NCBI GenBank assembly: GCA_964373955.1
Contig: CAYJXA010000001.1
Coordinates: 34,079-98,078 of the forward strand
Origin: an uncultured Methanosarcinales archaeon
GTDB taxonomy: Archaea; Nanobdellota; Nanobdellia; Woesearchaeales; GW2011-AR9
Direction of reading: 5' to 3'
Length of the DNA stretch: 64,000 nucleotides
This document shows positions 4,910-63,591 of this stretch, in pieces. The notes under the pieces are model-generated. The model was given only the letters and a program-made list of their open reading frames with translations. It ran no database searches and had not been told where the DNA came from. The position numbers were made by a program, and so were the translations under genes. How positions within the stretch are numbered: position 1 is the stretch's first letter; every line of letters starts with the position of its first letter.

Positions 4910-4921
4910 TTTTATTTCCTC

Positions 4922-26045: not shown

Positions 26046-26051
26046 ACGTCC

Positions 26052-26711
26052 TTAACCTAGTAATTCTCTGACAGCTCTATCTACCGTTCTTGGAACTGCA
26101 ATCCGCAAATGATCTCGTGCAGCTCGATATTCCGGAAGCAATCTGCAGAAAGGATTTGGTACATCTCCTTCCATCCCAGCGTATTCATTGAGAAGGGCAA
26201 TAGTTGGAGTATACCCAGAACCAGCGTATATTTGTCGAACTTGGTCTAGATTAGCTTTTGCCATAGCTAAGACGACATGTTGATCATCACTTCCATGAAG
26301 CATTGTAGGCCGATGATATTCGCGAGTAGCAACCAAACCTGCTTCCATCAATACTTGATCTCGAAATATTGCCTCTGCGCGAACCACATAATCAAATAAT
26401 TCTTGCACTAACTCTGGATCAGTTCCATGGCCCTGACCCTCCGCTAAGACTGCGGCAGCCTGATCTCTTCTCCACGATTCTTGATACACTCCGTTTGCAG
26501 CCGCCATTCGTACTATTTGCAGTTGTGCTTGAGTTTTCTCAGCTCCTTCTCTGAGGAACATTGGATGTAATCCGCTTCCACTCGAACGAACTCGCACTCT
26601 GTCCGCTAAGCCTTGTCGATGAACGTAGTCAGTAGCGATTGCCTCTGCTTGAGGACTTCTGCCATTATTCCCGGTACATACATATTCTAACGTCAAAAAA
26701 TTTTCAGTCAT
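26052..26711 (-). CDS. LMW-PTP / ArsC-like protein (paralog 2)
   Basis: CTGNNGRSPQAEAIA is a CX5R P-loop. It is clearly paralogous to the ORF at 21609-22250. Confidence 0.65.
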   Translation of the reverse strand: MTENFLTLEYVCTGNNGRSPQAEAIATDYVHRQGLADRVRVRSSGSGLHPMFLREGAEKTQAQLQIVRMAAANGVYQESWRRDQAAAVLAEGQGHGTDPELVQELFDYVVRAEAIFRDQVLMEAGLVATREYHRPTMLHGSDDQHVVLAMAKANLDQVRQIYAGSGYTPTIALLNEYAGMEGDVPNPFCRLLPEYRAARDHLRIAVPRTVDRAVRELLG

Positions 26712-48023: not shown

Positions 48024-49154
48024 TTACTTTGCCATATTCCAAAGCAATTCAAAGTATTTTCGAAATGAGTGAGCTATCTCTTTGTTTTTAATAACAAAGG
48101 CCTGCGGATTTTTCGACCAAAGAATAAGTGCTACTTTTTCTCCATAAATACTTACCTCCGCCGGGCTCATGTAATCCGAACTTAAAGTTTTAATTTTAAT
48201 AGTGCTATATCGCTGGCAGGCTTTAATCTGGCGTACTGCCCTCTCATCAAAAATAACTCGCGTCTTCACTTTATTTTTCTGAAAGGGGATCATCACTTCC
48301 GCTTCAAAAAAATCCGTCCATTTATCCGAAGCAGGGGGAACCCCAAAGGCAAGATATTCCTGCCCTCCTTTCATCGTTCGAGCTATTTCAGAAAAAATTG
48401 CCTTAACATCATCAATACCCCTAAAAATAAGCGATTCCTGTTGCCAGAGAATATTAAAATGTTTGCGAAATGCTTCTGCCAATTTTCTATTTTCGATGAG
48501 GAGCGTCGTCAAACTTGGTTCCCAAATGACAATTTGAACTTTATCACCATAAGTCAAAGTAGAAGTAGGACTAAATAGTTCAGTAGGAAGAGGTTTGTAC
48601 TCTGTCTGTTGCGGATCAAAATAATATTCAGCATTTATCTTCGTCAGAATTCTCTCATGAATATTCTTTTCTTTCAAAAGACGCTGATATTGTTCGATAA
48701 AAACGGGCAACGCTTTTTTCCAGAGTCCGTCATCAATTCCAATTCCGAATATTTCTTTATTACCCTGTCCAGAAGTTCGGATACAATCAAGCATTACGGT
48801 CTTTAATCCTTCTTTCCCTTTGTATACTTCCACTTTTACTTCTTCCTTTCTGAAGGTAGTCAGGGCAGTTAATTCTGGAAGTATTTGTTGCAAATGCTCC
48901 TGTTTCTCTTGTAGGAATTCTACCAATTTTTGCGGTTCAGTGGCATTATAATATTTGACATTATTACGAACTACATAATTGATTAAGCCTTTATTGAGAA
49001 GCTTTTCTACGAAATCATAGATAGTAGTTCGGTGCAGATTAGTTTCTTCTTTAATGGCGCTTACGGGGCTTGAACCAAGTTTGAGTAGGGCTACATACAC
49101 CGCTATCTCTCCTTCAGATAAGCCTAATTCTGCTAAAACCGTACGTACGTCCAT
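48024..49154 (-). CDS. TrmB-family transcriptional regulator with extended C-terminal domain
   Basis: N-terminal wHTH (GEIAVYVALLKLGSSPVSAIKEETNLHRTTIYDFVEKLLNKGLI); transcribed divergently from cluster 2. Confidence 0.65.
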   Translation of the reverse strand: MDVRTVLAELGLSEGEIAVYVALLKLGSSPVSAIKEETNLHRTTIYDFVEKLLNKGLINYVVRNNVKYYNATEPQKLVEFLQEKQEHLQQILPELTALTTFRKEEVKVEVYKGKEGLKTVMLDCIRTSGQGNKEIFGIGIDDGLWKKALPVFIEQYQRLLKEKNIHERILTKINAEYYFDPQQTEYKPLPTELFSPTSTLTYGDKVQIVIWEPSLTTLLIENRKLAEAFRKHFNILWQQESLIFRGIDDVKAIFSEIARTMKGGQEYLAFGVPPASDKWTDFFEAEVMIPFQKNKVKTRVIFDERAVRQIKACQRYSTIKIKTLSSDYMSPAEVSIYGEKVALILWSKNPQAFVIKNKEIAHSFRKYFELLWNMAK

Positions 49155-49270
49155 GGTGGTAATGGTAGCAAAAGGGTATATAAAAGTTGCTGTCGTAAAA
49201 ACGACAACAAGAATTTAAGTACTAGCTATTGCTTGTCACTTTGTAGTGAGCAAATTATAATAGAGGTAAC

Positions 49271-50380
49271 ATGGCAGATACAAACGTAACAATTACACTA
49301 CGAGAATTGGACTTAGACCAAGAGATTGGCTTTGCTAAAGGTGGATGGTACTCCCCCACAGAGATTCTGCAGCGAGTTCAAGAGTTAGGAGTAGAAGAAG
49401 TTACCGCCGCGGCGGTAGATCGTGCAGCCCGGTATTATGATCTGGCAAGAGTTCATGAATTGCTCCACTGCCTTGATGTTGGTTTTGGAAGCGCAGAGTT
49501 AGTGCGGCAATTAGCCCATGATCCGCAAGCCCAACAAAAGATAGGCTACACCTTTCCACATCAAGAAGATAGCCTCCCTGAACAACAAGTTGCATTTCTC
49601 TCAGGCTTATTTCATGATATTATAGTAGGATATCAAGGGAATACCATTACTAAAACTAGCCCGGAAAGAGAAATTATTGGTTTTATTGCTCCAGCAGAAG
49701 AGAAAAAGGTGAAAGGTAAACCCCAGTATATCAAAGATGCTATTGGCGATGATTTACGGGGGGCAATACAATTATATTGGTGCGGACAAAGAATTCCTGC
49801 GTGGTTAGCAGTTCGGGCTGGTGACGAATTACTCGCCGGTTCTGATCTCAAAGTCCTTGGGGAACCAAAGAAATTACTCGGCCAATTCAGCCCCTACAAA
49901 ATTCTGGATGCAATTTGGTATCACGATGGAAACTACCCCCTTCGAGGATTTGCAGAAGCTGATGCAATTCTAGGAGACAGAGTACGACTCTACGAGCAGC
50001 AGCAAGTTCCATTAGAAGTAATTGGAGCAGGGATTCAAAAATTGTTAGGATACACTGAAGTTGATCCGCAATGGGAAGAACGAAGTACAAAACCTGATGC
50101 TGCTTATCTTGAGAAAATGGTTACTAAAAAAGCTGGCCCTTTCTTACAAGCAATCGCGGGAACTTCGACGTACGACTTTGTCAGAGAAGATCTTTCTTCT
50201 CGTGGACGGGGAAAAAGAACCCTTGTTAGTCCCGCATTTTGGAGAGGGGTAGATTTAATGCCAGTGGCCTTAGAACAAGCTCGAGCTGACAACGAGGTTA
50301 ATAATGCGTTCAGTCATGAATTAGCTACACTGCAACAAAGACTACAACACCTTGAACAATACCGAGGTAGCTCAGCATGA
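49271..50380 (+). CDS. hypothetical protein, first gene of cluster 2
   Basis: 369 aa; its stop overlaps the start of the following standalone swivel-domain ORF (ATGA). Confidence 0.5.
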   Translation: MADTNVTITLRELDLDQEIGFAKGGWYSPTEILQRVQELGVEEVTAAAVDRAARYYDLARVHELLHCLDVGFGSAELVRQLAHDPQAQQKIGYTFPHQEDSLPEQQVAFLSGLFHDIIVGYQGNTITKTSPEREIIGFIAPAEEKKVKGKPQYIKDAIGDDLRGAIQLYWCGQRIPAWLAVRAGDELLAGSDLKVLGEPKKLLGQFSPYKILDAIWYHDGNYPLRGFAEADAILGDRVRLYEQQQVPLEVIGAGIQKLLGYTEVDPQWEERSTKPDAAYLEKMVTKKAGPFLQAIAGTSTYDFVREDLSSRGRGKRTLVSPAFWRGVDLMPVALEQARADNEVNNAFSHELATLQQRLQHLEQYRGSSA

Positions 50381-50679
50381 TAACAGGAATATGTGTTTCA
50401 CCGGGAACAGCAGAAGGAATTATTCGCATCCATCAAGAAGGGAGAACGTACACGAAGGAAGATATTATTGTCTTACAACGATGGTTAACTCATGAAGTAC
50501 TCAGCCTCAAAAATGCCGGTGCTTTAATTTCGGCAGGGGGAGGCATTACCTGCCATGCTTCGATTATTGCGAGAGAATTAAAAATTCCCGCATTAGTTAG
50601 TGCAGACGTTTCCTCGTTACGCGAAGGACAGTGTGTTTTCATAAACACCATCGAAGAAAGTATCGAGGTACGAGCATGA
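50377..50679 (+). CDS. standalone PEP-utilizing-enzyme mobile (phosphohistidine swivel) domain protein
   Basis: GTAEGIIRI...EDIIVLQ...GALISAGGGITCHASIIARELKIPALV. The gene encodes only the 100-aa domain. Confidence 0.7.
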   Translation: MITGICVSPGTAEGIIRIHQEGRTYTKEDIIVLQRWLTHEVLSLKNAGALISAGGGITCHASIIARELKIPALVSADVSSLREGQCVFINTIEESIEVRA

Positions 50680-51644
50680 AGAAGTACGCCACCTTAGCTC
50701 GGCCTGCACCCAAGAATGAGATTTGGGAGCAAGAGATTGATGGACAAACGTACCTTTGCGAAAGACCACATTATACTTTAAAAAAATTAGAAGTAGAACT
50801 ACTAAAAGAATGCTTTGAAAGAGAATCACTAATGCTGTTCGGGAAAAAACTTCCCCTCTTCTTTGAAGGGAACGGGCGATGGTGGGCAGATCCAGAGATA
50901 TGCAGTGCAAAGCTAATGGAACGATGCATCAAGAACCCGCAGCTCTACATTAAAACCATGGCTCAGAAAGTTCAGGATGTTAAAGAAGTAATCCAAATTC
51001 TCCACGAGATTAATCAAAAGATAGAAGAAAAGAATCCAGCAATCCTGAGAGAACAATTTACAAAATTAGTTGAAGCCTACTTCCTTTTTTATTCGTATCA
51101 TTTCATCACGTTTGTCCTTTTTGATGAAATGGCGTTGAAGTTCAAGAACATCTTACAACAATTTCTAAGCAGAGGGGACGCTAACCAATATTTCACGGAG
51201 TTCCTTCAAGCAGAAATGACTGCTGAAGCAATACGAAGGGGAGCGGTTCAAGATGACACCGCCCAACAAAGTAGAGATTTATTTTATTCCGCATGCAAAC
51301 CAACTATTTTCTACAAAGAGCCAAAATTCTTTACGGAATATGCATATGATAATGAAATTATTGCTAAATTGTATGATTCTACTCCCTCCCCGTTAATAGT
51401 GCAAGAGTTTTTTGCCCTTCGTCTTCTCGTTCCGCTCGGATTCCAAATAAATGAAGAAGCGCAGTACATTGAGAGTAAAATGCTCTGCCCCATCATGAAA
51501 ATAATTCTGGAAAAAATCAGAATATTTTTGGTACAGCAAGGGTTGTTTGAGAAGGAAAAAGATATTCGAGAGCTGGGTGTAGAAGAAATCATCTCCAAAT
51601 TACAACAGAGTAAAAGAAAGCAGGAGGAATACCATGACCATTGA
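50676..51644 (+). CDS. helical domain protein homologous to the N-terminal domains of the swivel-fusion paralogs
   Basis: Start at MKKYATL, where the ATG overlaps the preceding stop. It has an aromatic/hydrophobic block followed by FDE (FYSYHFITFVLFDEMALKF), similar to paralogs A and D. Confidence 0.55.
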   Translation: MKKYATLARPAPKNEIWEQEIDGQTYLCERPHYTLKKLEVELLKECFERESLMLFGKKLPLFFEGNGRWWADPEICSAKLMERCIKNPQLYIKTMAQKVQDVKEVIQILHEINQKIEEKNPAILREQFTKLVEAYFLFYSYHFITFVLFDEMALKFKNILQQFLSRGDANQYFTEFLQAEMTAEAIRRGAVQDDTAQQSRDLFYSACKPTIFYKEPKFFTEYAYDNEIIAKLYDSTPSPLIVQEFFALRLLVPLGFQINEEAQYIESKMLCPIMKIILEKIRIFLVQQGLFEKEKDIRELGVEEIISKLQQSKRKQEEYHDH

Positions 51645-52272
51645 AAAAATTGCAGTTTTTGACGTTTTAGGTCCCATGTACCATTACGATGCCCGGGGAT
51701 GGATTGATGGAGCGATAGAACCACTCATAGAAAGGCTTCATCAACATGGATATACGGGAAAAAACATGGCTGAGGAGGCCCGAGATGAAGAAGATTTACA
51801 GCGAACGCAAAAAGAGCCAATCTTAATTATGCCGGGATTTGCAGAAACAGTGTTGTATCTTCGCCATCACCAAGTCCTCCCAGTGGTAGTATCCGCAGGA
51901 ACTCCCTGGGTGTTAGAAAATACGTTGAAATTAGCTGCCCGAGATTACCAGACGAGGACAGGAGACGACTGTAGGGCAGAGCAATTAGTTGCCTCTTCCG
52001 ATTTAATTAGCACTATTCCCTTTGGCAGTAAAAGAGATCCTGAAACTTGGAGGAAAGCAGTACAGCAATACGTAGGAGCAGAAGTGATAGCGATATATGA
52101 AGATACTTTTGCAAATCTTACTGCTGCCGCGGAAGGGTTAACTCCGCAAGTAGGCTATCATGTAACTTCTACACGGCATGGGCTTGCACGGCTTTGTCGG
52201 GATCAGAGAATTTACCGCGGCCATATGCTTGAAGCTTTAGAACATCTACAAAGAGAGGTAATATCAAAATAA
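51634..52272 (+). CDS. hypothetical protein
   Basis: 212 aa; overlaps the upstream gene. An IAVFDVLG segment resembles a degenerate HAD motif I. Confidence 0.4.
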   Translation: MTIEKIAVFDVLGPMYHYDARGWIDGAIEPLIERLHQHGYTGKNMAEEARDEEDLQRTQKEPILIMPGFAETVLYLRHHQVLPVVVSAGTPWVLENTLKLAARDYQTRTGDDCRAEQLVASSDLISTIPFGSKRDPETWRKAVQQYVGAEVIAIYEDTFANLTAAAEGLTPQVGYHVTSTRHGLARLCRDQRIYRGHMLEALEHLQREVISK

Positions 52273-52275
52273 ACT

Positions 52276-52632
52276 ATGAAAAAAATACTTCAAGGGTTGG
52301 GAGTAAGTAAGGGAAAAGCCAGAGGCATTGTTCGCATTATCACAAATGGACAGGATTATTCTCACTTTCAAGCTGGAGACATCCTTGTAACGAGGCTCAC
52401 GGATCCAACGATGGTGCCGGTGATGGGAAAAGCTGCTGGGATTATTTGTGAAATCGGTGGAATGACATCACACCCTTCTATTGTTAGTAGGGAACTTGGA
52501 ATTCCCTGTATTGTTGCTGTTGATAACGCTACAGAAATTCTCAAAGAAGGTGATCTGATTGAAATATGCGGGGAGACAGGAGAAATTAACCTCCTGGAAA
52601 ATAAATCGACATGGAGGCTACGATGGGGATAA
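52276..52632 (+). CDS. standalone PEP-utilizing swivel domain protein (second copy)
   Basis: GKARGIVRI...GDILVTRLTDPTMVPVMGKAAGIICEIGGMTSHPSIVSRELGIPCIVA. Confidence 0.7.
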   Translation: MKKILQGLGVSKGKARGIVRIITNGQDYSHFQAGDILVTRLTDPTMVPVMGKAAGIICEIGGMTSHPSIVSRELGIPCIVAVDNATEILKEGDLIEICGETGEINLLENKSTWRLRWG

Positions 52633-53654
52633 ATCATTTTATTGACACCATGCTAGAAGCTTTAGGGAGCATGGACCTCAGCACTCTTGAACCAATGAGT
52701 AATTTCATCTTTCACCCCCTTTTCGATAGGGAATGGATAGAAAGAATAGAAGAAGTGATGAGAAAAGTAGAAGAATACAACCTCCCCTTAGAACAAGCGG
52801 CCAAGCATATCAAAGGAATTGCACATCTTCGATGTCAACTATTCTTCTTACTCTTAGATTTAAAATCGGCAAACATCTCTATAGGGAGAAGGATGAAACT
52901 AGCCTCTTTCTTCCATGAACTACTCGAACTCAAAGCACAGGGAGATGTGTACGGTAAACAAAGTAATATTGCTCATAGTCCTGAAGAAGTAGAACTTATT
53001 TTACGAAAGCCATTTCAGCCGGCAACGGAAGAAATTGCCAGATTATTAGGAAGATTATACGCTGCAAGTTATCATTTGGTGAACGGGTTGTACACTGACT
53101 TCTATACTGATTATAGCGCTGAAAACATGGGAGCATATCCTTTGAGTGATGGCAGGATATTAGTTATAAAACATTTCGAAGATGTAAGACCTTCCCTGTT
53201 GTGGGATACGAAAACCCCCTGCAAGAGATTGACCATTTACTGTATTTATGAGCAAGTGAGATTCACCTGCGATGCCGTCTCCTGCCATAGCCGGTACGAA
53301 GGGGATCCCATTCGGGGATTAAAGAGTTATCTCGTTGAAGCAGATGAAATACCGATTAAGGACCTTCAGCAAATAGAAAAGATCAAAGGGGCAATAGAAT
53401 CCCTCGCTGTTGAGCAGTGGAAGAAACTCGTACAGCAAAATAAAGAAGAATTGAAACAAAAAGGGGTGTTCATGCGTTGTTATGTGTTTAAAGATTTATT
53501 TGAATTAGTGGGGATGGACTGGAGGCCTACTTCAGCTATGCTTGAAGCAGTCAAGGGAAAAGAATTAGCGATTAATTTCTGGAATCCACCTGTAGAGAAC
53601 CAACAGGAATACTGGAGAAGAATTCTTGATCCGGCAGAGGAAGTGTATAGGTAA
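52611..53654 (+). CDS. hypothetical protein
   Basis: 347 aa; overlaps the swivel ORF. Confidence 0.45.
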   Translation: MEATMGINHFIDTMLEALGSMDLSTLEPMSNFIFHPLFDREWIERIEEVMRKVEEYNLPLEQAAKHIKGIAHLRCQLFFLLLDLKSANISIGRRMKLASFFHELLELKAQGDVYGKQSNIAHSPEEVELILRKPFQPATEEIARLLGRLYAASYHLVNGLYTDFYTDYSAENMGAYPLSDGRILVIKHFEDVRPSLLWDTKTPCKRLTIYCIYEQVRFTCDAVSCHSRYEGDPIRGLKSYLVEADEIPIKDLQQIEKIKGAIESLAVEQWKKLVQQNKEELKQKGVFMRCYVFKDLFELVGMDWRPTSAMLEAVKGKELAINFWNPPVENQQEYWRRILDPAEEVYR

Positions 53655-53658
53655 GGAA

Positions 53659-54432
53659 ATGAGAGAACCATTACTAGAGGTAAGAGTGGATCAAAAAAGT
53701 TTTGGGAAATTACCCATCCTCCAGGAGGTTTATTTCACCATAGAAGAAGGGGAGTATGTTTCTCTCGTTGGGCCAAGCGGTTGTGGGAAAACCACCTTAC
53801 TCCGCTTAATTGCAGGATTAGAGAATGACTTTCAAGGAGAAATTACGGTCAATGGCCATCCCCCCATAGTGGGCTACGACACGAGAATGATGTTTCAAGA
53901 ATCAAGATTATTTCCCTGGCTTTCCGCACGGGAAAACATTGAGCTTGGACTTCAGAAACACCCGTTACCGGTGTATCAAAGGGGGTTAGGAAAGAAATCA
54001 TTATCAGATCCACGAGTAGATGCTTTATTGAAGAAGAGTGGATTGGAACCATTTGCGGGTTACATGCCCGGGCAACTCTCCGGAGGAATGCAGCAGAGGA
54101 TAGCTCTTTTAAGAGCGTTAATAAGTACACCAAAATTACTCCTTCTGGATGAGCCTTTCAGCAAGTTGGATTATCTTACTGCCCTGCCTTTACAAGAAGA
54201 AGTAAGCGATTTGGTGCGAGGAGTGGGAGTAACTGCATTTATGATTACGCATAACATTGAAGAGGCGGTATATCTTAGTGATAGGATACTCTTGCTTTCT
54301 TCAAGGCCAGCAACAATAGTAAGAGCATACGATATTAAACTTCCACAGCCACGAGAAAGAATGAGCGATGAAATACAAACATATGTAAGAGAAATCTTGC
54401 GACAGGTACAGGGAGAGATGAGAACTTCATAA
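53659..54432 (+). CDS. ABC transporter ATP-binding protein (NitT/TauT-type, SsuB/TauB-like) with no adjacent permease
   Basis: Walker A GPSGCGKTT, signature LSGGMQQR, Walker B LLLLDEPFS, and H-loop ITHN. Confidence 0.85.
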   Translation: MREPLLEVRVDQKSFGKLPILQEVYFTIEEGEYVSLVGPSGCGKTTLLRLIAGLENDFQGEITVNGHPPIVGYDTRMMFQESRLFPWLSARENIELGLQKHPLPVYQRGLGKKSLSDPRVDALLKKSGLEPFAGYMPGQLSGGMQQRIALLRALISTPKLLLLDEPFSKLDYLTALPLQEEVSDLVRGVGVTAFMITHNIEEAVYLSDRILLLSSRPATIVRAYDIKLPQPRERMSDEIQTYVREILRQVQGEMRTS

Positions 54433-54434
54433 AC

Positions 54435-55178
54435 CTACTTTTTCGCTTTATTCCAAATAATCTGAAAGAATTTTGCATAAGAATTTGCAGTTGATTTCTC
54501 TTCGATCAGAAATCCATACGGTTTATCTAACCAAATAATAATAGCAACTTTACTCCCACAAATAATAGTTTCAGTTAATTCCTCAAACTTCTCCGGCGTA
54601 TATCGTACTTCTGTCAACTTCTTTCTACTTAACTCTTTTCCCCAGTATTGAAGCTGGGGATGAAACAATAGTTTTCCTCTAATACCTTTGTTAATTCTAT
54701 GATTGTGAAAACTCTCCCAAAAATAGTCCCCCAGTAATTCATTTGCTTTTTTAGGGCCTCCATAGGCACAATAATTTTTAGAGGAAGTATCAAGCATCAG
54801 ACGAAGAAGTTCTTTTATTCCCCGAATCCCTTGAAAAAGTATTGCTTTGGGCTTTTCCTGGGCAAATTTCTGCTTTGCTTCTAATTCCGGGATGATCTTT
54901 TGAAGACGTTCTTTCTTTTCTTCGATAAACCCTAGCAATTGCCGGGGAGAAACCCCTTGATATGTTCTCATTTTCCCTTCCAGAACCGAGGTAACCAGCC
55001 CTTTTTCAGCTAAAGAATGAAAAGCCCGATGGACCACTGCATTTTGCAAGCCTGATTTTTCTACCACTTTACCAGCAGCAGAAGAGCCAAGTTCTAAAAG
55101 AGTAAGAAATACTTTAATTTCCGCACCGGTAAGTCCTAAATCTTCAAGGATGGAAGTGTCCATAGGATATGGGTACAT
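54435..55178 (-). CDS. TrmB-family transcriptional regulator
   Basis: wHTH GAEIKVFLTLLELGSSAAGKVVEKSGLQNAVVHRAFHSLAEKGLV. Confidence 0.65.
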   Translation of the reverse strand: MYPYPMDTSILEDLGLTGAEIKVFLTLLELGSSAAGKVVEKSGLQNAVVHRAFHSLAEKGLVTSVLEGKMRTYQGVSPRQLLGFIEEKKERLQKIIPELEAKQKFAQEKPKAILFQGIRGIKELLRLMLDTSSKNYCAYGGPKKANELLGDYFWESFHNHRINKGIRGKLLFHPQLQYWGKELSRKKLTEVRYTPEKFEELTETIICGSKVAIIIWLDKPYGFLIEEKSTANSYAKFFQIIWNKAKK

Positions 55179-55318
55179 ATCATTAGGTCCATTTAAATCT
55201 TTCTAGTATAGTCACAATTGTGATTACAAAGTATTAAATAGCCACCCCCTCCCCATAAAAGGCATTTTCAGAAAAAAAGCTAATTTAAAGCGAGAGAGGG
55301 TATGGAATTAAAAAAATC

Positions 55319-56815
55319 ATGAAAACCAAAGAAATTGTCCAGCATCTGCAAGGCAAAAAATGGCGCAAGCGGGGAACATGGCCGCATTACATTATTAGCA
55401 GCGAAATATTCGGGGAAGGGGAAACCGCATCCTACTGCCAACGATTAGGATATCCGTTCAAGCGCACCTTAGGAATTTGGTACAAAGAAGACTGGTTTGA
55501 CCCGGAAGAAGAATGGGAGGCTATTGGTGCCATCGTTACCTCAGAATACAAAAAAGATCCTGCCTATTTATGGAAATATGGACAACATTGCCTTCAACTT
55601 GGAGAAGAGACTATCCGAAGAACAAAAGAATTAGGGGAGATTGATCCTGCAACGATATCAAATGAGGAGTTAGGGCATAGATACAGGGAGGCAATTACGG
55701 AAATCAAGGGATACATGCCCTTCATGTTTAGCCTGCATCTTTTTGACAAATTCCTCACGGAAAAGTTTGAAGAATTGTTGAGTGCATTTATTCGAGAAGA
55801 GAAGCTTCCAAAAGAAGACTATTTCAAGTATCAAACGGCTTTAACACTCCCAAATAGGAAAATCTTTGTCTTACAGGAGAAAGTTGATCTAATGAAAATA
55901 GCTCTCCTTGCCAAAAAGAAGAAGGAAGGGATTAAGGATAAAGCCATCCAGAAAAAAATGGAAGAGCATACGGCACAATATGGTTGGATCAATATGGCTT
56001 ACTTAGAAGCACTTCCTCATGATAAAACTTATTTCCACCAAAAAGTACAGGCATTGTTAGAAACAGATGTAGAAAATGAGTACAATCAAATCGCAAGTTA
56101 TGAGAAAAAGCTCATTCGAGAAAGAGAAGAGTACATGAACAAGATACAGAGAGGGGAATTACATACCATTTGCAAGGCTATCCAATTATTTGGATTTCTG
56201 CGATCATTCCGCTTGGATACAGCATACATTGCATATTATAACTGCTGGAAAGTTATCCAAGAAATTGAGAAGAGGCTTCACCTGCCCGTGTTTGACATTC
56301 GGTACCTCGATTCAAAAGAAGTTTCTTTTGCTCTCCAAAACCCTAAAGAAAAAGGATACTTACACCTAATTCAGGAACGAAAAAGAGGAGTACTGTCCAT
56401 AATGATCGAGGACACGCGTCTTGAAATTACAGGAGAGGAGATAGAAGCTATTACACGAGAGATTACCTTTCCAAAGGAAATTCTTTCAGCAGCCATTAAA
56501 GGGACTACTGCTTACCCCGGGAGGATCATAGGACCATGCAAAGTGCTTCATCGTCTGGAGGATATGCAAAAAATGTGCGTAGGAGATATCCTCGTGATTG
56601 CGATGACTGACCCCAATTATATTCCGGCGATGGAAAAAGCAGCAGCTTTTGTGACGGATCAAGGAGGGATTCTCTGCCATGCTGCTATTGTCAGCAGGGA
56701 AATGAAAAAGCCCTGTATTATTGGAACAAAATCAGCAACTAAATCATTCAAAGACAAGGATATACTAGAAGTAAACGCTGATGAAGGGATAGTAAGAAAA
56801 ATCGATGAGAAATAA
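55319..56815 (+). CDS. helical domain plus C-terminal PEP-utilizing swivel domain protein, paralog D
   Basis: C-terminus GDILVIAMTDPNYIPAMEKAAAFVTDQGGILCHAAIVSREMKKPCIIG. Confidence 0.7.
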   Translation: MKTKEIVQHLQGKKWRKRGTWPHYIISSEIFGEGETASYCQRLGYPFKRTLGIWYKEDWFDPEEEWEAIGAIVTSEYKKDPAYLWKYGQHCLQLGEETIRRTKELGEIDPATISNEELGHRYREAITEIKGYMPFMFSLHLFDKFLTEKFEELLSAFIREEKLPKEDYFKYQTALTLPNRKIFVLQEKVDLMKIALLAKKKKEGIKDKAIQKKMEEHTAQYGWINMAYLEALPHDKTYFHQKVQALLETDVENEYNQIASYEKKLIREREEYMNKIQRGELHTICKAIQLFGFLRSFRLDTAYIAYYNCWKVIQEIEKRLHLPVFDIRYLDSKEVSFALQNPKEKGYLHLIQERKRGVLSIMIEDTRLEITGEEIEAITREITFPKEILSAAIKGTTAYPGRIIGPCKVLHRLEDMQKMCVGDILVIAMTDPNYIPAMEKAAAFVTDQGGILCHAAIVSREMKKPCIIGTKSATKSFKDKDILEVNADEGIVRKIDEK

Positions 56816-58416: not shown

Positions 58417-59439
58417 CTATCTCAACAATCTATCTACTTCCTTAGCTTTCCATCCCTGCCCCACTAATCTGGTACGAATCTGCTCATCGGAAAAGCCGCG
58501 GCCCCTGCTTTCCTCAATATATTCTTTAGCAGGAGCATATTTTTTCTTATGGATTAAAGAAACGCCAATTAAGATAATGAGTGCTAGTAATACTAGAATT
58601 CCACCCAAATAATAAATCCAGCTCGGGAATGGTTTCTGCACTTGCGGAGGAGGAGTGGTTTCCTGTAGTTTGCAGAGCAAAGTAATAGAATCGCAACTTT
58701 GTGGGCACGCTTCTAAAGTCCGCCACTGTGTTCCGTCATCAGAACATTGCTGAAGTAATTGCCCTAAGCAGCGTTTCGAGGCAGGAGAACATTGTTGTGC
58801 TCCTGATGTTGAAATCGCACCAGTGGTACAAGACTGCTGCTCTGCCGGTTTAGGAGTTACGATGATTGGGCTTCTATTTGTTGGAGGTTCACCACAGGTA
58901 TCAATCCGGAAACAAATTCTGGCTTGCTGTCCATTGCGGCATAAGCTCCAGCCACCGCATTCCCAATTATAGAGGCAAGGACCAGGAGTAACATTCTGGG
59001 GAGTAGAAGTTTGATTTCTTCTGGGCCTGGGAATGAATGACGTTTCATTCTCTTCTTCTTCGGGAGTTGGAGGGGGTGGTTGGGCTGCAGGATATGCCAA
59101 TCCAAGATTCGTAACTGCACCGCTTTGGTACGTTGCAGTCCCAACCATGGACTGGGCGCCAAGTGAATTAACAGCGCTAAATGAGATCGTAGTCCCATCA
59201 ATCCCCGTTACTTTAAAGACAGAAGAATATCCATACTGGCCAGATGCATTGATGGGTGTTGTAAAAATAGTTCCACTGACATTAGCTCTCAACGTAAAGG
59301 TACCATTGGGAAGATTATTTACTTGCCCGTAAAATTGGTGGAAATTAGTTAAGGAAGGGGGATTTTCATTTTGAGCATGTACTCCCACTACTACCAAGAA
59401 AAGAAATACCAGAGAAATAAAAAGCAGTAGTGGTTTCAT
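58417..59439 (-). CDS. secreted cell-surface protein with Cys-rich region, C-terminal TM anchor and cytoplasmic tail
   Basis: Signal peptide; many NxS/T sequons; Cys-rich module; PT-rich linker; C-terminal TM; GC-rich. Confidence 0.55.
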   Translation of the reverse strand: MKPLLLFISLVFLFLVVVGVHAQNENPPSLTNFHQFYGQVNNLPNGTFTLRANVSGTIFTTPINASGQYGYSSVFKVTGIDGTTISFSAVNSLGAQSMVGTATYQSGAVTNLGLAYPAAQPPPPTPEEEENETSFIPRPRRNQTSTPQNVTPGPCLYNWECGGWSLCRNGQQARICFRIDTCGEPPTNRSPIIVTPKPAEQQSCTTGAISTSGAQQCSPASKRCLGQLLQQCSDDGTQWRTLEACPQSCDSITLLCKLQETTPPPQVQKPFPSWIYYLGGILVLLALIILIGVSLIHKKKYAPAKEYIEESRGRGFSDEQIRTRLVGQGWKAKEVDRLLR

Positions 59440-60884
59440 TGTAAAGTGTAGGGAATGGTAACGGGACTTTCAACCCATACCCAGTATGGTTTTCCTGGGC
59501 TTAGAGGTGTAGTAGCGGGGACGGATGTACATTGATAATTCTGCTGGCATTGGAAGATAACAAAAGTATTTGCGGAAGTGGTAAAATCCGCTAAAGGCCT
59601 GGGAACTATTCCTGGAAGCGAAATGAGATTCCAACCAGTGCGTAAAGACAGCATTGACGGCGCAGCGCCAACACCGGGTGGAATTGCTGCTGCCGATTGC
59701 AGAGATTGGACTTGGCAAGTAGTGACGATACTCGTGGAATCACTATCCGCAAGGGCTCTCAGGCGTACAAAATATCCTCTAAAAAGGGAAAGCGTGGTAA
59801 ACTCATCTGGTGCAGCGCCTTGCGTCCACACTTGCGCTTGCCCAGATTGAGCGTCATAGGTATGAATTCTCTCAACAACGCTATTTCCAAACACAGCATC
59901 AAGAGTGGTAGATGTAGGCAGACAGGGAAGCGCAAAAGCTTGCAATTCCTGCGTTCGGCTGAAAGTGACGTTGAGTTGAGCAGTGTTGTCTTCTAACAAC
60001 GTTACAGTCATTTGTGGAAAGTTTGATTCTTGTAAGGCATAGGCAATGTCTCCTACTGCAAAGGTATAATATTGGTTAGTTGCCTGACCTAAAACGTTAG
60101 CGGTAATATCTAAAATAACGGCACTGGACATCGCTGGAGCAGTGTACACAAAATTAGCCAATGTTACATTGAGCGTCGGATTAGGACTTACCGAAGAGAG
60201 TGTTCCTAGGTTCACTTGAATCGTAGGCGGAGAGGAACTATTGGCAATGATTTGCCCAGAAAATGATTGGGAAGTGTTTAATCTAATTACTGGGGGATAA
60301 GGAGTTCCGCTCGCATCAAGCAACTGAATGCGGGCACTGTCGGGAGGAACGAAATGGAGATTACGCACTGTTACTTGGCCATTCTGGTAGCGTACTTCTA
60401 CATCGGGAGTAGTATCATCAAGGTTAAGGTAAACAATCGAGTTATCTTCAGCGCCAGTGGTAGAGAGTACATCTACCGCAAGAGGAGTGCCTTGAGGCTG
60501 CTCTAACCTGAAGCCATACGTTAAGTTTCCTAACCGCACCAGCTGGAACCAATATTCCTGTGGATTAGAATCAAAAGCAGAAAGCCCTGTTTGAAAAGTA
60601 ACGTTTCTCTGCGTGGCGGGAAGAGTCGTGAAGGTAAACGATTCTTCTCGGACTAAATCAATCGTCCCACCGGCCCAGGGAGTTTCACCAATAAAGATTG
60701 CTTGTCCCACACCAACCCTGGAATTAAGATACACGCTCACAAAAGTTACTAAGACGATTAGAGCTATACCTAACATAATCCAAACTTGCTTTTGCGCTGG
60801 TTCAGGAATTGTTTTTGCGGTTGCTCTTTTCACATTACACTCTCCGTATTGAAATAGTGGCAGTGATGGTAGGAGTGTCCTCAT
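59436..60884 (-). CDS. secreted/anchored surface protein
   Basis: N-terminal TM/signal anchor; Thr/Ser/Asn-rich with many sequons; overlaps the neighbouring genes. Confidence 0.5.
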   Translation of the reverse strand: MRTLLPSLPLFQYGECNVKRATAKTIPEPAQKQVWIMLGIALIVLVTFVSVYLNSRVGVGQAIFIGETPWAGGTIDLVREESFTFTTLPATQRNVTFQTGLSAFDSNPQEYWFQLVRLGNLTYGFRLEQPQGTPLAVDVLSTTGAEDNSIVYLNLDDTTPDVEVRYQNGQVTVRNLHFVPPDSARIQLLDASGTPYPPVIRLNTSQSFSGQIIANSSSPPTIQVNLGTLSSVSPNPTLNVTLANFVYTAPAMSSAVILDITANVLGQATNQYYTFAVGDIAYALQESNFPQMTVTLLEDNTAQLNVTFSRTQELQAFALPCLPTSTTLDAVFGNSVVERIHTYDAQSGQAQVWTQGAAPDEFTTLSLFRGYFVRLRALADSDSTSIVTTCQVQSLQSAAAIPPGVGAAPSMLSLRTGWNLISLPGIVPRPLADFTTSANTFVIFQCQQNYQCTSVPATTPLSPGKPYWVWVESPVTIPYTLQ

Positions 60885-63591
60885 CGGCTTCTAAGTCTAG
60901 GACAGTAAGTTGTACGGGTACTCCACCCAGAAGTATGGTTCTGCTATCACCTTCGGCAAAATAACGGTCAAGGAAATTATCCATACGTAGTCTGAGGAGG
61001 TTGCTATCTGCAATATCAACGATTTGAAGCGTATGAATTGGTCCATCGACGGCACTAACGAAGAGAAGCGTTGAGCCTTCTACTCCTACAAGAGTTACAG
61101 GATCGCCATTATCGGGGAGATAATTATATGCTGGAACACTAAACTGAACTTCAATAGGTATAGTTTCCACTCCAGTTTCCTGCTGATCTATAAACACGGT
61201 TCTATTTCCTAGCACGACCGTTCCGTTATATGCAATAGGAGTATGAGCATGCAAGTTTCTAACTGGTTGTATTGAACCCGCTGGATATGCACCAAAGCCA
61301 AAACTCTGCAGACGGTTATCAGAAGCGTACGGCAAGTACAACTTCCCGCTAATGTTAAAGACTGGTTTTCTATCAGCAATAATTTCATTGATGAATGCAA
61401 ACCAATCTGGATTGTCATACTGAACAGCACTTAGGGGGATAAGTCGCCTGATGAACACCTTTTTCGCATTTCCTGTTTGCTGATTTGATTCCAAGATGTA
61501 CTGCTGGTCATTCGTGCCATCGTTGATAGTAACTGCCGTAAATGGATCCACCAATATTGATTCTGTAAGAATAGCGTTATCATCGCAAACCCTAGCGGAA
61601 GTGAAACCACTATATGCAGTTAAGAAGCACATACGCAGCAGGGATGTTCCTACTCTTACCCGAATGGAAGGGGTTAATTCAGTCATGAGACCAGCAAATT
61701 CAATTTGTGCTAATTCTTCAGCGGTAGTGCCAGTAAAGGTAATTTGTCCAGCGGTGATGTCCACAACCACATCAATTCTTCCCGCAGGAGTATTAAACGT
61801 GGCCACATCTCCCAATACACTCACTGGGAAAGTCTGACTCCCATTAAGTGTACGCAAGGTTAGTTGGGAAGGATTATAAAAACGAACTTCTCCTGGGTTC
61901 CCTTGATGACCAAGACGATAAAAAGAATTATTTAAACCTAATACTAATTCATTCCCCCCTGTGAAAGTACTAATAAATTGGTCATTGAATGGGTGAGATC
62001 GGGGTGCGGCAGTAATATTATAAAATTGGTAGATTGAAGCAGTTTTAACTGGAGTAGCTCCAGAAATTTGAGCAGAGTGGTAATAATACAGTGTCGTATT
62101 CCTATTTTGCTCAACAAATGGTGTGCGGTAAAGCAGTGTTCTTGGACCTAATGCGGTGGTAATCATAAATGTCGGTTGATATAATTCAGTATCGAGAGGG
62201 GAAGCTGAAACTGTTCCTACATTCGGTAGGGGGGTGATGAGCGTAACTCCCCCTAGTGAAGAAAATGAAGCAAATAATTCTTGTGGTAATGTAACCGGCA
62301 TAAGTTGATCAGAACGGAGTGCAGTTAAATTAAATGGCGGAGGAGGAGCCCCATAAAAACGTTGCAGGAATATTTTTCCCCCCTCTAAAGTTGGAAACTC
62401 TACTTTATCCTCGCTTCCTGATGCGGATAAGTCCGTCGTTCCCCCCTCCTGATATGCTGTAAGTGTTAACAACGGTAAAGAGAGAGTCGGTTGAATAGGA
62501 TGACCTAGCAAGTAAAGGTTATCTTCAAACTCAAGTGCAATTCTCTTCCCTGCAATAATGGAATTAATGAAGTTATTGTACTGAAGATTAGTTCTCATAG
62601 CGGAAGGTTCTTTAAGATCAAAGACGGAAACTTGTTTTACCCCGTCAACGTATTCGTAGAGGAAGCCGACTGAGCGTGAGGGGGGTATTGGCCCGGGTAG
62701 AACTGGAATTCCCCCTACTCGAGTAACAATAGTTCGATTTGTTAATTCTCCCTCCCTTAAGGTAAATCTATCGGCATCATTCACACAGACTAATGCTTGC
62801 TGTACATCTGCAGGATTATCATCACGGCAGATCGTGAATTGGCCTATCGCTGGGTCAGTAATCTCCACCGGAGTAGTAAGCGTAAACGTGACTTCAAACT
62901 GTTCGGTGAGATTTTGAGGGACGACATACGCTGCAGGCGCTTCTCCTGGTTCAAATGAGCGGATAACGACTTGCGCGCCAAAAATCCCCACAGCAATTTT
63001 TCTTCCTCCAAGGACATCAAAAGTATACCATTCCGTCCCGGCAAAATTTGCAATAGTATATTGTTCTCTGGTGGGAATGTGGGTTAACTGTAACAATTCA
63101 GTATCAAATAATTCCTGATCTTCTGGATACTCCAAAAGATAAAATTCATTTTCTAACAGAAGCATAAGGGGATTTCCGGAGACCATATTGAGTGAGAATG
63201 CTCCTAGGGGAAGAAGGTGCTGTCGACGAGTAATATTTCCCGTCAAGATAAGATCGACGGCCTTTACTTCCCCTTCAAGAGGTTCATCGTATAGAAAAGT
63301 GACTCCCTCCGTAAAATAAGGTCGTTCATTGGTTAAGGCAAGAACTTCAGTAGAATTGAGAACAACGAGAACATCATCAAGAAGAACATCAGCATCCGAC
63401 CCATCATTACAAATGGTTACTCTGTTTTGTACTAACATCGTTCCCCCAAGATCATCGCAAATACGAACTCCGGCGAATAGATGATCTGCAGTGGTGGTTA
63501 GGCTAAGCAAAAGTAATAGTAGTATACCTATCACCCATTGCGTATTGGTTTTGATCATATTATTCTCACCGCTAATCCCGCTCCGGGACAA
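60835..63591 (-). CDS. very large (about 900 aa) extracellular protein
   Basis: Signal peptide (IGILLLLLLSLTTTA); T/N/G-rich beta-like repeats; GC-rich. Confidence 0.55.
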   Translation of the reverse strand: MSRSGISGENNMIKTNTQWVIGILLLLLLSLTTTADHLFAGVRICDDLGGTMLVQNRVTICNDGSDADVLLDDVLVVLNSTEVLALTNERPYFTEGVTFLYDEPLEGEVKAVDLILTGNITRRQHLLPLGAFSLNMVSGNPLMLLLENEFYLLEYPEDQELFDTELLQLTHIPTREQYTIANFAGTEWYTFDVLGGRKIAVGIFGAQVVIRSFEPGEAPAAYVVPQNLTEQFEVTFTLTTPVEITDPAIGQFTICRDDNPADVQQALVCVNDADRFTLREGELTNRTIVTRVGGIPVLPGPIPPSRSVGFLYEYVDGVKQVSVFDLKEPSAMRTNLQYNNFINSIIAGKRIALEFEDNLYLLGHPIQPTLSLPLLTLTAYQEGGTTDLSASGSEDKVEFPTLEGGKIFLQRFYGAPPPPFNLTALRSDQLMPVTLPQELFASFSSLGGVTLITPLPNVGTVSASPLDTELYQPTFMITTALGPRTLLYRTPFVEQNRNTTLYYYHSAQISGATPVKTASIYQFYNITAAPRSHPFNDQFISTFTGGNELVLGLNNSFYRLGHQGNPGEVRFYNPSQLTLRTLNGSQTFPVSVLGDVATFNTPAGRIDVVVDITAGQITFTGTTAEELAQIEFAGLMTELTPSIRVRVGTSLLRMCFLTAYSGFTSARVCDDNAILTESILVDPFTAVTINDGTNDQQYILESNQQTGNAKKVFIRRLIPLSAVQYDNPDWFAFINEIIADRKPVFNISGKLYLPYASDNRLQSFGFGAYPAGSIQPVRNLHAHTPIAYNGTVVLGNRTVFIDQQETGVETIPIEVQFSVPAYNYLPDNGDPVTLVGVEGSTLLFVSAVDGPIHTLQIVDIADSNLLRLRMDNFLDRYFAEGDSRTILLGGVPVQLTVLDLEADEDTPTITATISIRRV

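What the first reader, a model, noticed from the sequence alone, without database searches (positions are those of the whole stretch)
50377..50679. Standalone phosphohistidine swivel domain translationally coupled (ATGA overlaps) to both neighbours
A 100-aa protein consists only of the PEP-utilizing mobile domain with the conserved His (GGGITCHASIIARE). Its start overlaps the stop of the 369-aa upstream ORF, and its stop overlaps the ATG of the downstream 322-aa helical-domain ORF. This implies stoichiometric co-expression of a separable phosphocarrier module, reminiscent of HPr-like phosphorelay logic, in an organism where no PTS components are visible in this window.
Basis: seen in the sequence. 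Interest (0 to 1): 0.6.

Follow-up and report, generated by a model that had tools for sequence, protein, structure and literature searches.

The report
Free-standing phosphohistidine carrier, split archaeal phosphotransferase
A 100-residue protein consisting only of the phosphate-carrying "swivel" domain of PEP synthase/rifampin-phosphotransferase-type enzymes is a real, conserved, separately translated subunit of a rare multi-protein phosphotransfer system in Woesearchaeota, and no gene for the usual ATP-binding part lies nearby.

Summary
ORF 50377-50679 encodes a 100-aa PF00391 swivel domain (GGGITCHAS, His60). It shares ATGA overlaps with the 369-aa ORF upstream (A369) and the 322-aa ORF downstream (H322).

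It is not a frameshift artefact:
- The same three genes occur in at least 8 non-duplicate related loci, with the swivel/H322 ATGA in 9/9 junctions checked.
- His60 is invariant in 12 orthologues, and dN/dS is 0.06.
- This swivel type is never fused to A369 or H322.

The gene belongs to a longer operon under one conserved TrmB-type operator: A369, S100, H322, a weakly HAD-like protein, a second swivel (S118) and H347. Fusions in other lineages (H322·S118, S118·H347, S118·S100, H322·H347) tie the parts together.

H322 is remotely related to the helical substrate-binding domain of rifampin phosphotransferase (RPH) and HpeH. A369 and H347 are new families. No ATP-grasp or PEP-binding domain was found in the window, and no ATP-grasp in 28 related loci.

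Best reading: S100 is the diffusible phosphohistidine carrier of a split small-molecule phosphotransferase. It shuttles between A369 (inferred donor site) and H322 (acceptor site). The main rival is an ATP-grasp subunit encoded elsewhere. This is a new variant of a known kind, of moderate interest.

The parts
48024..49154 (-). TrmB-family regulator (376 aa), divergently transcribed from the operon
   Evidence: PF01978 TrmB HTH at residues 7-74, E 1e-15. A TrmB gene sits in the same divergent position in L001, L002, L005, L006, L007, L009, L013 and L015.
49187..49210 (.). Operator-like palindrome TTGCTGTCGTAAAAACGACAACAA, just downstream of a TATA-like GTATATAAAAG
   Evidence: The same palindrome (core TTGTCG-N6-CGACAA) lies at the same place in 9 related loci of both module types. 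There is a single copy in the window, against 0.07 expected by chance.
49271..50380 (+). A369: 369-aa all-alpha protein of a new family; inferred phosphoryl-donor-side subunit
   Evidence: No Pfam, NCBIfam or PDB sequence hit. Only 11 homologue clusters among 5.8 billion, all 325-383 aa and none fused. There are 65 invariant columns, many His/Asp/Arg/Lys, including H62, H66, H115-D116, D161 and H218-D219. The AF2 model has pLDDT 93.8. The best Foldseek hits are non-significant and are PDE/HD-superfamily catalytic domains.
50377..50679 (+). S100: stand-alone phosphohistidine swivel domain (the finding); His60 in GGGITCHAS
   Evidence: PF00391 hit. The RPH swivel is the best PDB match. His60, Arg66 and Glu67 are invariant in all 15 aligned swivel sequences, 12 of them S100-type. 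dN/dS against L002 is 0.06. It is a separate ORF in all loci.
50676..51644 (+). H322: 322-aa protein with a small N-terminal beta unit plus a helical bundle; inferred acceptor (small-molecule) binding subunit
   Evidence: AF2 model pLDDT 89.9. Profile-profile match to the helical domain of F498-type [helical+swivel] proteins: 80.6% probability, E 1.3e-5, 137 collinear columns. Weak fold match to RPH 5hv2, TMq 0.36. Seven of the 10 database homologues carry a C-terminal PF00391 domain.
51634..52272 (+). HAD212: 212-aa weakly HAD-like protein, an optional component
   Evidence: PF00702 at E 0.0017, 19.2 bits, below the 26.4 cutoff. Invariant D10 (FDVLGP), S87-A-G-T90, K133 and E156-D157 fit HAD motifs I-IV, but the Asp+2 residue is missing. 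No PDB profile hit. The gene is absent from L005, L006, L009 and L015.
52276..52632 (+). S118: second stand-alone swivel domain, of canonical type
   Evidence: PF00391 at 91.4 bits. In other lineages it is fused to the C-terminus of H322 homologues, to the N-terminus of H347 homologues, or to the S100-type swivel.
52623..53654 (+). H347: 343-aa protein of a second new family
   Evidence: No Pfam or PDB hit. It has 23 homologue clusters, 3 of them with an N-terminal PF00391 domain. There are 40 invariant columns, including YHxxNGLYxDFxTD and SxH...GD. It is fused to H322 in L022-L024.
53659..54432 (+). ABC-transporter ATPase, possibly co-transcribed; not a conserved part of the system
   Evidence: PF00005 at E 1.5e-31. 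It is absent downstream of H347 in most related loci.

Best explanation
S100 is the free-standing phosphohistidine carrier subunit of a multi-subunit small-molecule phosphotransferase. The system is related to rifampin phosphotransferase (RPH) and the two-component dikinases HpeHI/CreHI/PpsAB. It is confined to a few Woesearchaeota (DPANN archaea).

Proposed cycle:
1. His60 of S100 is charged with a phosphoryl (or pyrophosphoryl) group at a donor site.
2. The untethered domain moves to H322.
3. It transfers the phosphate to a small molecule held in H322's helical cleft.

The donor site is most probably A369, the invariable upstream partner. A369 looks like a metal-dependent phospho-enzyme (conserved H...HD...D-like residues and many Arg/Lys). 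It would stand in for the missing ATP-grasp domain.

In the long form of the operon, a second carrier (S118) and a second catalytic protein (H347) join the same complex. A TrmB-type repressor that binds a conserved palindrome switches the whole set on, presumably in response to the substrate.

Shown here:
- domain identity and conservation of the catalytic His;
- separate-ORF status and translational coupling;
- gene-fusion links among the parts;
- remote homology of H322 to the RPH-type substrate domain;
- absence of an ATP-grasp domain in the window and in all related loci.

Inferred: phosphorylation of His60, the direction of transfer, the donor role of A369, and the nature of donor and acceptor.
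For: S100 is a real swivel domain under selection:
- PF00391 hit, and the RPH swivel is its best solved-structure match.
- His60, Arg66 and Glu67 are invariant across 12 S100-type sequences.
- dN/dS is 0.06.

The gene triad is conserved:
- A369-S100-H322 is found in every locus that has A369, including a minimal three-gene form (L019/L021).
- The ATGA overlap with H322 is present in 9 of 9 junctions.

H322 links the system to the RPH/HpeH family:
- It matches the helical domain that precedes the swivel in F498-type proteins (hhalign 80.6%, E 1.3e-5).
- Those proteins match PigC/RedH/RPH C-terminal halves.
- Most H322 homologues carry their own C-terminal swivel, i.e. the HpeH architecture.

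Gene fusions join the parts into one system: H322·S118, S118·H347, S118·S100 and H322·H347.

There is precedent for splitting this enzyme family into subunits that interact only transiently: HpeHI, CreHI and PpsAB (PMC12167813).

A369 looks like an enzyme:
- It has 65 invariant columns rich in His/Asp/Arg/Lys.
- Its confident model's top, though weak, fold hits are PDE/HD phosphoesterases.

No PPDK_N ATP-grasp was found in the window or in 28 related loci with 6-10 kb flanks.

A conserved TrmB operator points to ligand-controlled expression.
Against: - No phosphotransfer has been shown.
- A369's HD/PDE likeness rests on Foldseek hits with E of 0.13 or more and TM of 0.3 or less, plus a motif pattern. 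No HD Pfam hit appears even at E<=5.
- The similarity of H322 to RPH is remote: TMq 0.36 and hhalign probability 80.6%, not above 95%.
- In related multi-swivel proteins from other organisms, a canonical PPDK_N domain is often present. The ancestral chemistry therefore uses an ATP-grasp, and one could be encoded elsewhere in this genome. Only 64 kb of a 298-kb contig was visible.
- H347 and HAD212 have no assigned role.
- The need for two carriers is unexplained.
Confidence: 0.5

Rival explanations
1. S100 has the same carrier role, but a conventional ATP-grasp subunit (HpeI/PpsB-like, PPDK_N) encoded elsewhere in the genome charges it. A369 is then an accessory or downstream enzyme. It could hydrolyse the gamma-phosphate of a pyrophospho-His intermediate, dephosphorylate the product, or stimulate the reaction as PpsC does in phenylphosphate synthase.
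For: - Relatives of these swivel units in other organisms are often fused to one N-terminal PPDK_N that serves several [helical+swivel] units.
- Many two-unit proteins lack an ATP-grasp and must find it in trans.
- Known two-component dikinases work with a separate ATP-grasp subunit and no stable complex (PMC12167813).
- A369's weak fold hits are to hydrolases.
- Only 64 kb of the 298-kb contig was visible.
Against: - No PPDK_N lies within 6-10 kb of any of 28 related loci or anywhere in the window, although the window has six swivel domains.
- A369 is the one strictly co-inherited, translationally coupled partner besides H322, and it sits at the position the ATP-grasp occupies in PEPS/PPDK gene order.
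- The minimal module is exactly A369-S100-H322.
Confidence: 0.3
2. S100 is a non-catalytic, regulatory or scaffolding swivel-like domain. The precedent is the extra C-terminal PEP-utilizer domain of Bacillus/Geobacillus pyruvate kinase. In this reading it modulates A369 or H322 rather than carrying phosphate.
For: - S100-type sequences diverge from the canonical swivel: they lack the TDP motif, have a 3-residue deletion, and score only 49.6 bits on PF00391 against 91.4 for S118.
- A second, canonical swivel (S118) is available in most loci and is fused to H322 in most homologues.
Against: - The catalytic His and the surrounding GG-x-T-[CS]-H-A-S-I-I-A-R-E motif are invariant or nearly so.
- The minimal A369-S100-H322 loci have no other swivel nearby.
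- Purifying selection is strong.
Confidence: 0.07
3. The system is a PTS-like, PEP-driven phosphorelay. S100 acts like HPr, receiving phosphate from a PEP-binding enzyme and passing it to a sugar-specific component.
For: - The swivel domain is shared with Enzyme I.
- TrmB regulators are classically sugar-responsive.
- Enzyme I can phosphorylate rifampicin in vitro, which links the two systems (PMC13099321).
Against: - No PEP-utilizers_C TIM barrel, HPr or EII domain was found in any scanned ORF of the window.
- S100 matches RPH/PEPS swivels better than Enzyme I.
- Its partner H322 belongs to the RPH/HpeH-type helical domain lineage.
Confidence: 0.05
4. The 100-aa ORF is an artefact: a sequencing frameshift or a recent gene fission of a larger swivel-containing protein.
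For: Seven of the 10 H322 database homologues do carry a swivel domain in the same polypeptide.
Against: - That fused swivel is C-terminal and of the S118 type, not the S100 type.
- S100-type ORFs of 99-112 aa are separate in independent assemblies from NCBI, ENA, JGI, TARA and Logan, at 40-89% identity.
- dN/dS is 0.06.
Confidence: 0.01

Closest known systems
Two-component small-molecule dikinases HpeHI, CreHI and PpsAB (phenylphosphate synthase) (PMC12167813)
   Same: These enzymes are split into separately encoded subunits that meet only transiently. One subunit combines an RPH-type helical substrate-binding domain with a swivel His domain. H322·S118 fusions and F498 have exactly that HpeH layout. 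The genes sit in inducible operons for small-molecule modification.
   Different: In the known systems the swivel is always part of the substrate-binding subunit, and the second subunit is an ATP-grasp. Here one swivel (S100) is a polypeptide of its own. There are two different swivels. No ATP-grasp is encoded nearby. Two unrelated new proteins (A369, H347) are obligatory partners.
Rifampin phosphotransferase RPH (PDB 5fbs/5hv1; PMC4844700) and the PigC/RedH/HapC ligases
   Same: RPH is the best solved-structure match of S100, with a full-length alignment to swivel residues 765-865. The domain logic is the same: donor site, substrate site and a shuttling His domain. H322 gives a weak fold match to the RIF-binding domain.
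   Different: RPH is a single 865-aa chain ordered ATP-grasp, RIF-binding domain, swivel. Here the parts are separate proteins in the order A369, swivel, H322, and the ATP-grasp is absent.
PEP synthase / pyruvate phosphate dikinase
   Same: The swivel domain is homologous. The gene order [donor domain]-[swivel]-[acceptor domain] mirrors the PEPS/PPDK domain order.
   Different: Neither PPDK_N nor the PEP/pyruvate TIM barrel is present. A369, H322 and H347 show no profile similarity to PPDK_N.
PTS Enzyme I / HPr phosphorelay
   Same: The concept is shared: a small diffusible phosphohistidine protein passes phosphate between larger proteins. The Enzyme I N-terminal domain contains the same swivel fold.
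   Different: HPr has a different fold. No PEP-binding domain, HPr or EII was found. The organism is an archaeon of a group not known for PTS (the last point is from general knowledge, not tested here).

Membership tests
PF00391 PEP-utilizers mobile (swivel phosphohistidine) domain | Profile match above Pfam's gathering score | tested here: met
   49.6 bits against a cutoff of 23.1, E 3e-13, covering residues 27-90.
PF00391 PEP-utilizers mobile (swivel phosphohistidine) domain | Catalytic His in the G-G-x-x-[ST/C]-H-[AGP]-[AS]-I motif | tested here: met
   S100 has GGGITCHASIIARE. His60 aligns with the phospho-His position of the RPH swivel and is invariant in 12 S100-type sequences.
PF00391 PEP-utilizers mobile (swivel phosphohistidine) domain | Beta/beta/alpha sandwich fold | not tested
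   No structure was predicted for S100; both prediction jobs went to A369 and H322.
RPH / HpeHI-type small-molecule dikinase | ATP-grasp (PPDK_N) domain or subunit that charges the His | tested here: not met
   No PPDK_N was found by Pfam in the operon proteins or in the other window ORFs scanned. A PPDK_N profile run over six-frame ORFs of the window and 28 loci also found nothing. hhalign of the PPDK_N profile against A369, H322 and H347 gave probability of 0.2% or less. The rest of the genome could not be searched.
RPH / HpeHI-type small-molecule dikinase | RIF-binding-domain-like helical substrate-binding domain | tested here: inconclusive
   The H322 family against the F498-type helical domain family gave hhalign 80.6%, E 1.3e-5, 137 columns. 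F498 matches PigC 612-880 and RPH 700-861. Foldseek of H322 against RPH 5hv2 gave TMq 0.36, probability 0.57, E 0.29.
RPH / HpeHI-type small-molecule dikinase | Swivel domain covalently attached C-terminal to the substrate-binding domain | tested here: not met
   S100 is a separate ORF upstream of H322 in all loci. The feature is met by S118-type swivels in 7 of the 10 H322 database homologues and by F498.
RPH / HpeHI-type small-molecule dikinase | ATP + substrate -> AMP + Pi + phospho-substrate through a phospho-His intermediate | not testable with these tools
   This needs biochemistry.
PEP synthase / PPDK | N-terminal PPDK_N and C-terminal PEP-utilizers_C TIM barrel flanking the swivel | tested here: not met
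   Neither domain is present in A369, H322, H347 or any other scanned ORF.
PTS (Enzyme I / HPr) | PEP-binding Enzyme I C-terminal domain, HPr and EII components | tested here: not met
   None was found among the window ORFs scanned. ORFs under 180 aa outside the two clusters were not scanned.
HD-domain / PDE metal-dependent phosphohydrolase (for A369) | H...HD...D metal-binding motif on the all-alpha HD fold | tested here: inconclusive
   H62/H66, H115-D116 and D161 are invariant, with spacings of about 50 and 45 residues. The model is confident and all-alpha. The top 14 Foldseek PDB hits are PDE catalytic domains, and an HD phosphohydrolase (2ogi) also appears, but all have E of 0.13 or more and TM of 0.39 or less. 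No HD or PDE Pfam hit appears at E<=5 in any of 11 members.
HAD superfamily (for HAD212) | Motifs I-IV (DxD, S/T, K, DD/ED) and a Pfam HAD match | tested here: inconclusive
   PF00702 gave 19.2 bits, below the 26.4 cutoff. D10, S87/T90, K133 and E156-D157 are invariant, but the second Asp of motif I is Leu. No PDB profile hit.

The most novel reading that the evidence does not exclude
The A369-S100-H322(-S118-H347) system is an ATP-grasp-independent phosphotransferase. A new all-alpha, HD/PDE-like metal enzyme (A369), and perhaps H347, charges free-standing swivel domains directly from a phosphoanhydride or phosphoester donor. Two distinct diffusible phosphohistidine carriers then relay phosphate between three catalytic proteins. 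That would make it a previously undescribed archaeal phosphorelay built from the swivel domain.
Probability: 0.25. Interest if true: 0.8.

Novelty: new variant of a known kind. Interest (0 to 1): 0.6.

Why it matters
All characterised swivel-domain enzymes (PEPS, PPDK, Enzyme I, RPH, GWD, HpeHI/PpsAB) keep the phosphohistidine domain tethered to at least one catalytic domain. They charge it at either an ATP-grasp or a PEP-binding barrel.

A conserved, untethered swivel protein would show that the domain can work as a diffusible carrier. Its obligatory partners here are two families with no detectable relatives. That raises the possibility of a third kind of charging site.

The organism is a genome-reduced DPANN archaeon, yet it holds six swivel domains in 64 kb. 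The investment suggests an important small-molecule modification, detoxification or scavenging function.

The conserved TrmB operator gives an experimental handle for finding the inducer, which is probably also the substrate.

Tried and rejected
Sequence searches that found nothing:
- Profiles of A369 and H347 against PDB: only E~0.9 histone noise for A369 and no hit for H347.
- Pfam scans of all family members at E<=5: nothing consistent.
- PADLOC defence models on all operon proteins: no hit.
- HAD212 profile against PDB: only a chance-level hit.

Profile-profile comparisons:
- A369, H322 and H347 against each other and against a PPDK_N profile: all probability of 0.4% or less.
- A369 and H347 against the F498-type helical domain: no relation.
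- A369, H347 and HAD212 profiles against 150 multi-swivel proteins, looking for Rosetta-stone fusions: none.

Attempts to see the rest of the 298-kb contig by exact-protein look-up returned only short Logan contigs.

Literature searches found no description of this operon or of stand-alone swivel proteins in DPANN. The Woesearchaeota comparative-genomics paper does not mention it.

Rejected explanations:
- Frameshift artefact, refuted by the orthologues.
- A simple reading of the gene order A-S-H-S'-H' as a linear relay chain. Other lineages have the order A-S'-S-H·H', so order alone does not fix the path.
Full report
**Observation**

ORF 50377-50679 (+) encodes a 100-aa protein. Its only recognisable content is the PEP-utilizers mobile (swivel) domain: PF00391, 49.6 bits against a cutoff of 23.1. 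The phospho-accepting His sits in GGGITCHASIIARE. Among solved structures, the best match is the C-terminal swivel domain of Listeria rifampin phosphotransferase (RPH). That match is 5fbs residues 765-865, aligned to query residues 2-98, E 2.4e-6.

Both four-base overlaps are present. ATG 50377-79 overlaps TGA 50378-80 of the 369-aa ORF 49271-50380. TGA 50677-79 overlaps ATG 50676-78 of a 322-aa ORF. That start is the one used in the public gene call (P0001) and by the orthologues. GAGGT motifs lie 8 and 6 nt upstream of the two ATGs.

**Context**

The window is archaeal. Exosome Rrp4/41/42, SBDS, proteasome alpha, aIF2-alpha and ribosomal L1/L10 genes surround the locus. All relatives with a name are Woesearchaeota or Nanoarchaeota MAGs.

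S100 lies in a plus-strand operon with minimal or negative spacers:
- A369 (49271-50380)
- S100 (50377-50679)
- H322 (50676-51644)
- HAD212 (51634-52272)
- S118, a second stand-alone swivel (52276-52632)
- H347 (52623-53654)
- an ABC ATPase

A TrmB-family regulator is transcribed divergently.

The 116-bp intergenic region holds a TATA-like box followed by the palindrome TTGCTGTCGTAAAAACGACAACAA (49187-49210). The same palindrome occupies the same place in nine related loci. It occurs only once in the window.

The window contains six swivel domains in all:
- S100 and S118;
- F498 (55319-56815), a [helical domain + C-terminal swivel] protein with its own TrmB regulator;
- three tandem [helical + swivel] genes at 22247-26045 on the minus strand, flanked by two LMW-phosphatase-like genes.

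**Orthologous loci**

Exact-protein look-ups and pattern scans recovered 28 related loci, about 13 non-duplicate. They were classified with in-session HMMs. The architectures are listed below; a dot marks a fusion into one polypeptide.

| Architecture | Loci |
|---|---|
| A, S, H, HAD, S', H' | window, L001, L002-4 |
| A, S, H, S', H' | L009, L026 |
| A, S, H·S', H' | L005 |
| A, S, H·X·S' | L006 |
| A, S'·S, H, H' | L015 (L020 shows the same start, A, S'·S, H, then the contig ends) |
| A, S', S, H·H' | L022-L024 |
| A, S, H only | L019/L021 |
| HAD, S', H' or HAD, S'·H' | L013, L011 |

The last row is a separate cassette with its own TrmB gene and the same operator.

Three conclusions follow.

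- **S100 is a real gene.** It is a separate 99-112-aa ORF in most lineages. His60, Arg66 and Glu67 are invariant. dN/dS against the closest orthologue is 0.06. The ATGA overlap with H322 is kept in 9/9 junctions.
The swivel fused to H322 in 7 of its 10 database homologues is C-terminal and of the S118 type. S100-type swivels are never fused to A369 or H322, only to the other swivel.
- **The fusions tie the parts together.** H·S', S'·H', S'·S and H·H' link S100, S118, H322 and H347 into one functional unit. A369 is the constant unfused partner.

**What the partners are**

H322:
- It models confidently (pLDDT 89.9) as a small N-terminal beta unit plus a long helical bundle.
- Its family profile aligns collinearly with the helical domain that precedes the swivel in F498-type proteins (hhalign 80.6%, E 1.3e-5, 137 columns).
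- F498 in turn matches the C-terminal halves of PigC/RedH and RPH.
- RPH is the PDB hit with the highest TM-score for H322, but only 0.36.
- H322 is therefore best read as a divergent RIF-binding-domain/HpeH-type substrate-binding module.

A369:
- It models at pLDDT 93.8 as an all-alpha protein.
- It has no sequence relatives outside 11 clusters among 5.8 billion proteins, and no Pfam, NCBIfam or PDB hit.
- Its 65 invariant columns are rich in His/Asp/Arg/Lys. They include an H...HD...D-like pattern: H62/H66, H115-D116, D161.
- Its top Foldseek hits are PDE/HD phosphoesterase domains, but none is significant (E of 0.13 or more).

H347 has 23 clusters and 40 invariant columns, and nothing similar was detected. 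HAD212 is HAD-like only weakly.

**What is missing**

No PPDK_N ATP-grasp, PEP-utilizers_C barrel or PTS component was found:
- not in the operon proteins or the other window ORFs of 180 aa or more that were scanned;
- not by a PPDK_N profile over six-frame ORFs of the window and all loci;
- and A369, H322 and H347 show no profile similarity to PPDK_N.

By contrast, the closest swivel relatives in the 1.8-billion-protein representative library are giant proteins with 2-6 [helical+swivel] units. Many of these start with a canonical PPDK_N. Many two-unit proteins have none.

**Mechanism**

The known chemistry of the family is as follows (RPH, PMC4844700; HpeHI/CreHI/PpsAB, PMC12167813):
1. A His on the swivel domain is charged at a donor site.
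2. The domain moves.
3. The phosphate is delivered to a small molecule in the helical domain.

HpeHI shows that donor and acceptor sites can lie on different, only transiently interacting proteins.

I propose that S100 is this carrier reduced to a free subunit, shuttling between A369 and H322. The minimal three-gene form and the gene order [A]-[swivel]-[H] support this. That order mirrors [ATP-grasp]-[swivel]-[acceptor domain] of PEPS/PPDK. A369, an enzyme-like protein that is always present, would be the charging site.

The steps from 'S100 is a conserved swivel with a catalytic His and two coupled partners' onward are inference. The least secure step is the donor role of A369.

The main rival (0.3) is that a conventional ATP-grasp subunit encoded elsewhere charges S100, and A369 is an accessory hydrolase. 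Minor rivals are:
- a regulatory, non-carrier swivel, as in Bacillus pyruvate kinase (0.07);
- a PEP-driven PTS-like relay (0.05);
- an artefact (0.01).

Why the long operon needs two different carriers is unexplained. S118 pairs by fusion with both H322 and H347. It also functions without A369 in the HAD-S'-H' cassette.

**Novelty and verdict**

The swivel domain, split dikinases and the RPH-type substrate domain are all known. The following are not described in the literature searched:
- a conserved untethered swivel protein;
- two distinct swivels in one system;
- two partner families without detectable relatives;
- absence of any local ATP-grasp;
- a dedicated TrmB operator.

The system is rare. 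It was found in 3 of 185,579 species-representative genomes and 9 metagenome contigs for A369.

I rate it a new variant of a known kind, interest 0.6. There is a 0.25 chance that it is an ATP-grasp-independent phosphorelay, which would be considerably more interesting.

Noticed in passing
window 21609-26711 (minus strand): A second swivel cluster. Three tandem genes (470, 361 and 435 aa), each a helical domain plus a C-terminal PF00391 swivel, are joined by 4-nt overlaps. LMW-phosphotyrosine-phosphatase-like genes flank the cluster on both sides (26052-26711 and 21609-22343). A 208-aa ORF (20986-21612) with an 'LLHD' motif but no Pfam hit follows.
   Followed up: partly
window 49177-49220; also L001, L002, L005, L006, L007, L009, L011, L013, L015 intergenic regions: A conserved operator-like palindrome (core TTGTCG-N6-CGACAA) lies between two divergent TATA-like boxes, shared by the A369-type and the HAD-S'-H' cassettes. 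There is only one copy in the window. It is probably the binding site of the divergent TrmB-family regulator.
   Followed up: partly
window 54435-56815: A third module. A TrmB-like regulator (54435-55178, minus strand) is divergent from F498 (55319-56815), an HpeH-like [helical + swivel] protein that matches PigC/RedH/RPH C-terminal halves. The intergenic region has a different perfect-looking palindrome, TAGTCACAATTGTGATTA, at 55209-55226.
   Followed up: partly
L003 about 6183-6185 and L004 4207-4209 (H347 orthologue): Two independent assemblies, 99.7-99.9% identical to L002, carry a CAG->TAG change that truncates the H347 orthologue at the position of the conserved 'KPFQPATEE'. This is either a population-level loss-of-function allele or a read-through codon.
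   Followed up: partly
representative-library hits P0046-P0061 and similar: Giant proteins of 1,000-2,650 aa carry 2-6 swivel domains, i.e. tandem [helical+swivel] units. Some start with a single N-terminal PPDK_N ATP-grasp, which suggests one ATP site feeding several carrier/substrate units. I am not aware of any characterisation of such arrays.
   Followed up: partly
window 48024-49154: The 376-aa TrmB-family regulator appears to contain an internal duplication of its C-terminal (ligand-binding?) domain. Residues 240-376 align with residues 111-246 of the 247-aa paralogue, in addition to the full-length alignment.
   Followed up: no
L005 / L017 (contig CAYYLB010000013.1): The contig carrying a typical A-S-H·S'-H' operon is labelled 'uncultured Methanosarcinales archaeon'. 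All other named carriers are Woesearchaeota/Nanoarchaeota. This is either a mis-binned contig or a horizontal transfer.
   Followed up: no
L001, L005, L006 flanks: ABC-2-type exporter genes (ABC2_membrane + ABC_tran, DrrA-like), YjbQ and an AAA_18 kinase-like gene recur near the operon in three loci. This is compatible with a xenobiotic-handling neighbourhood, but it may simply be inherited synteny.
   Followed up: no
window 3737-8274, 9266-11014 and 58417-63591: Several large ORFs have no Pfam hit: 390, 574 and 543 aa in tandem, and 340, 482 and 918 aa in tandem. A 582-aa protein has an APH (aminoglycoside-phosphotransferase-like kinase) domain according to the collection's precomputed hits.
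   Followed up: no
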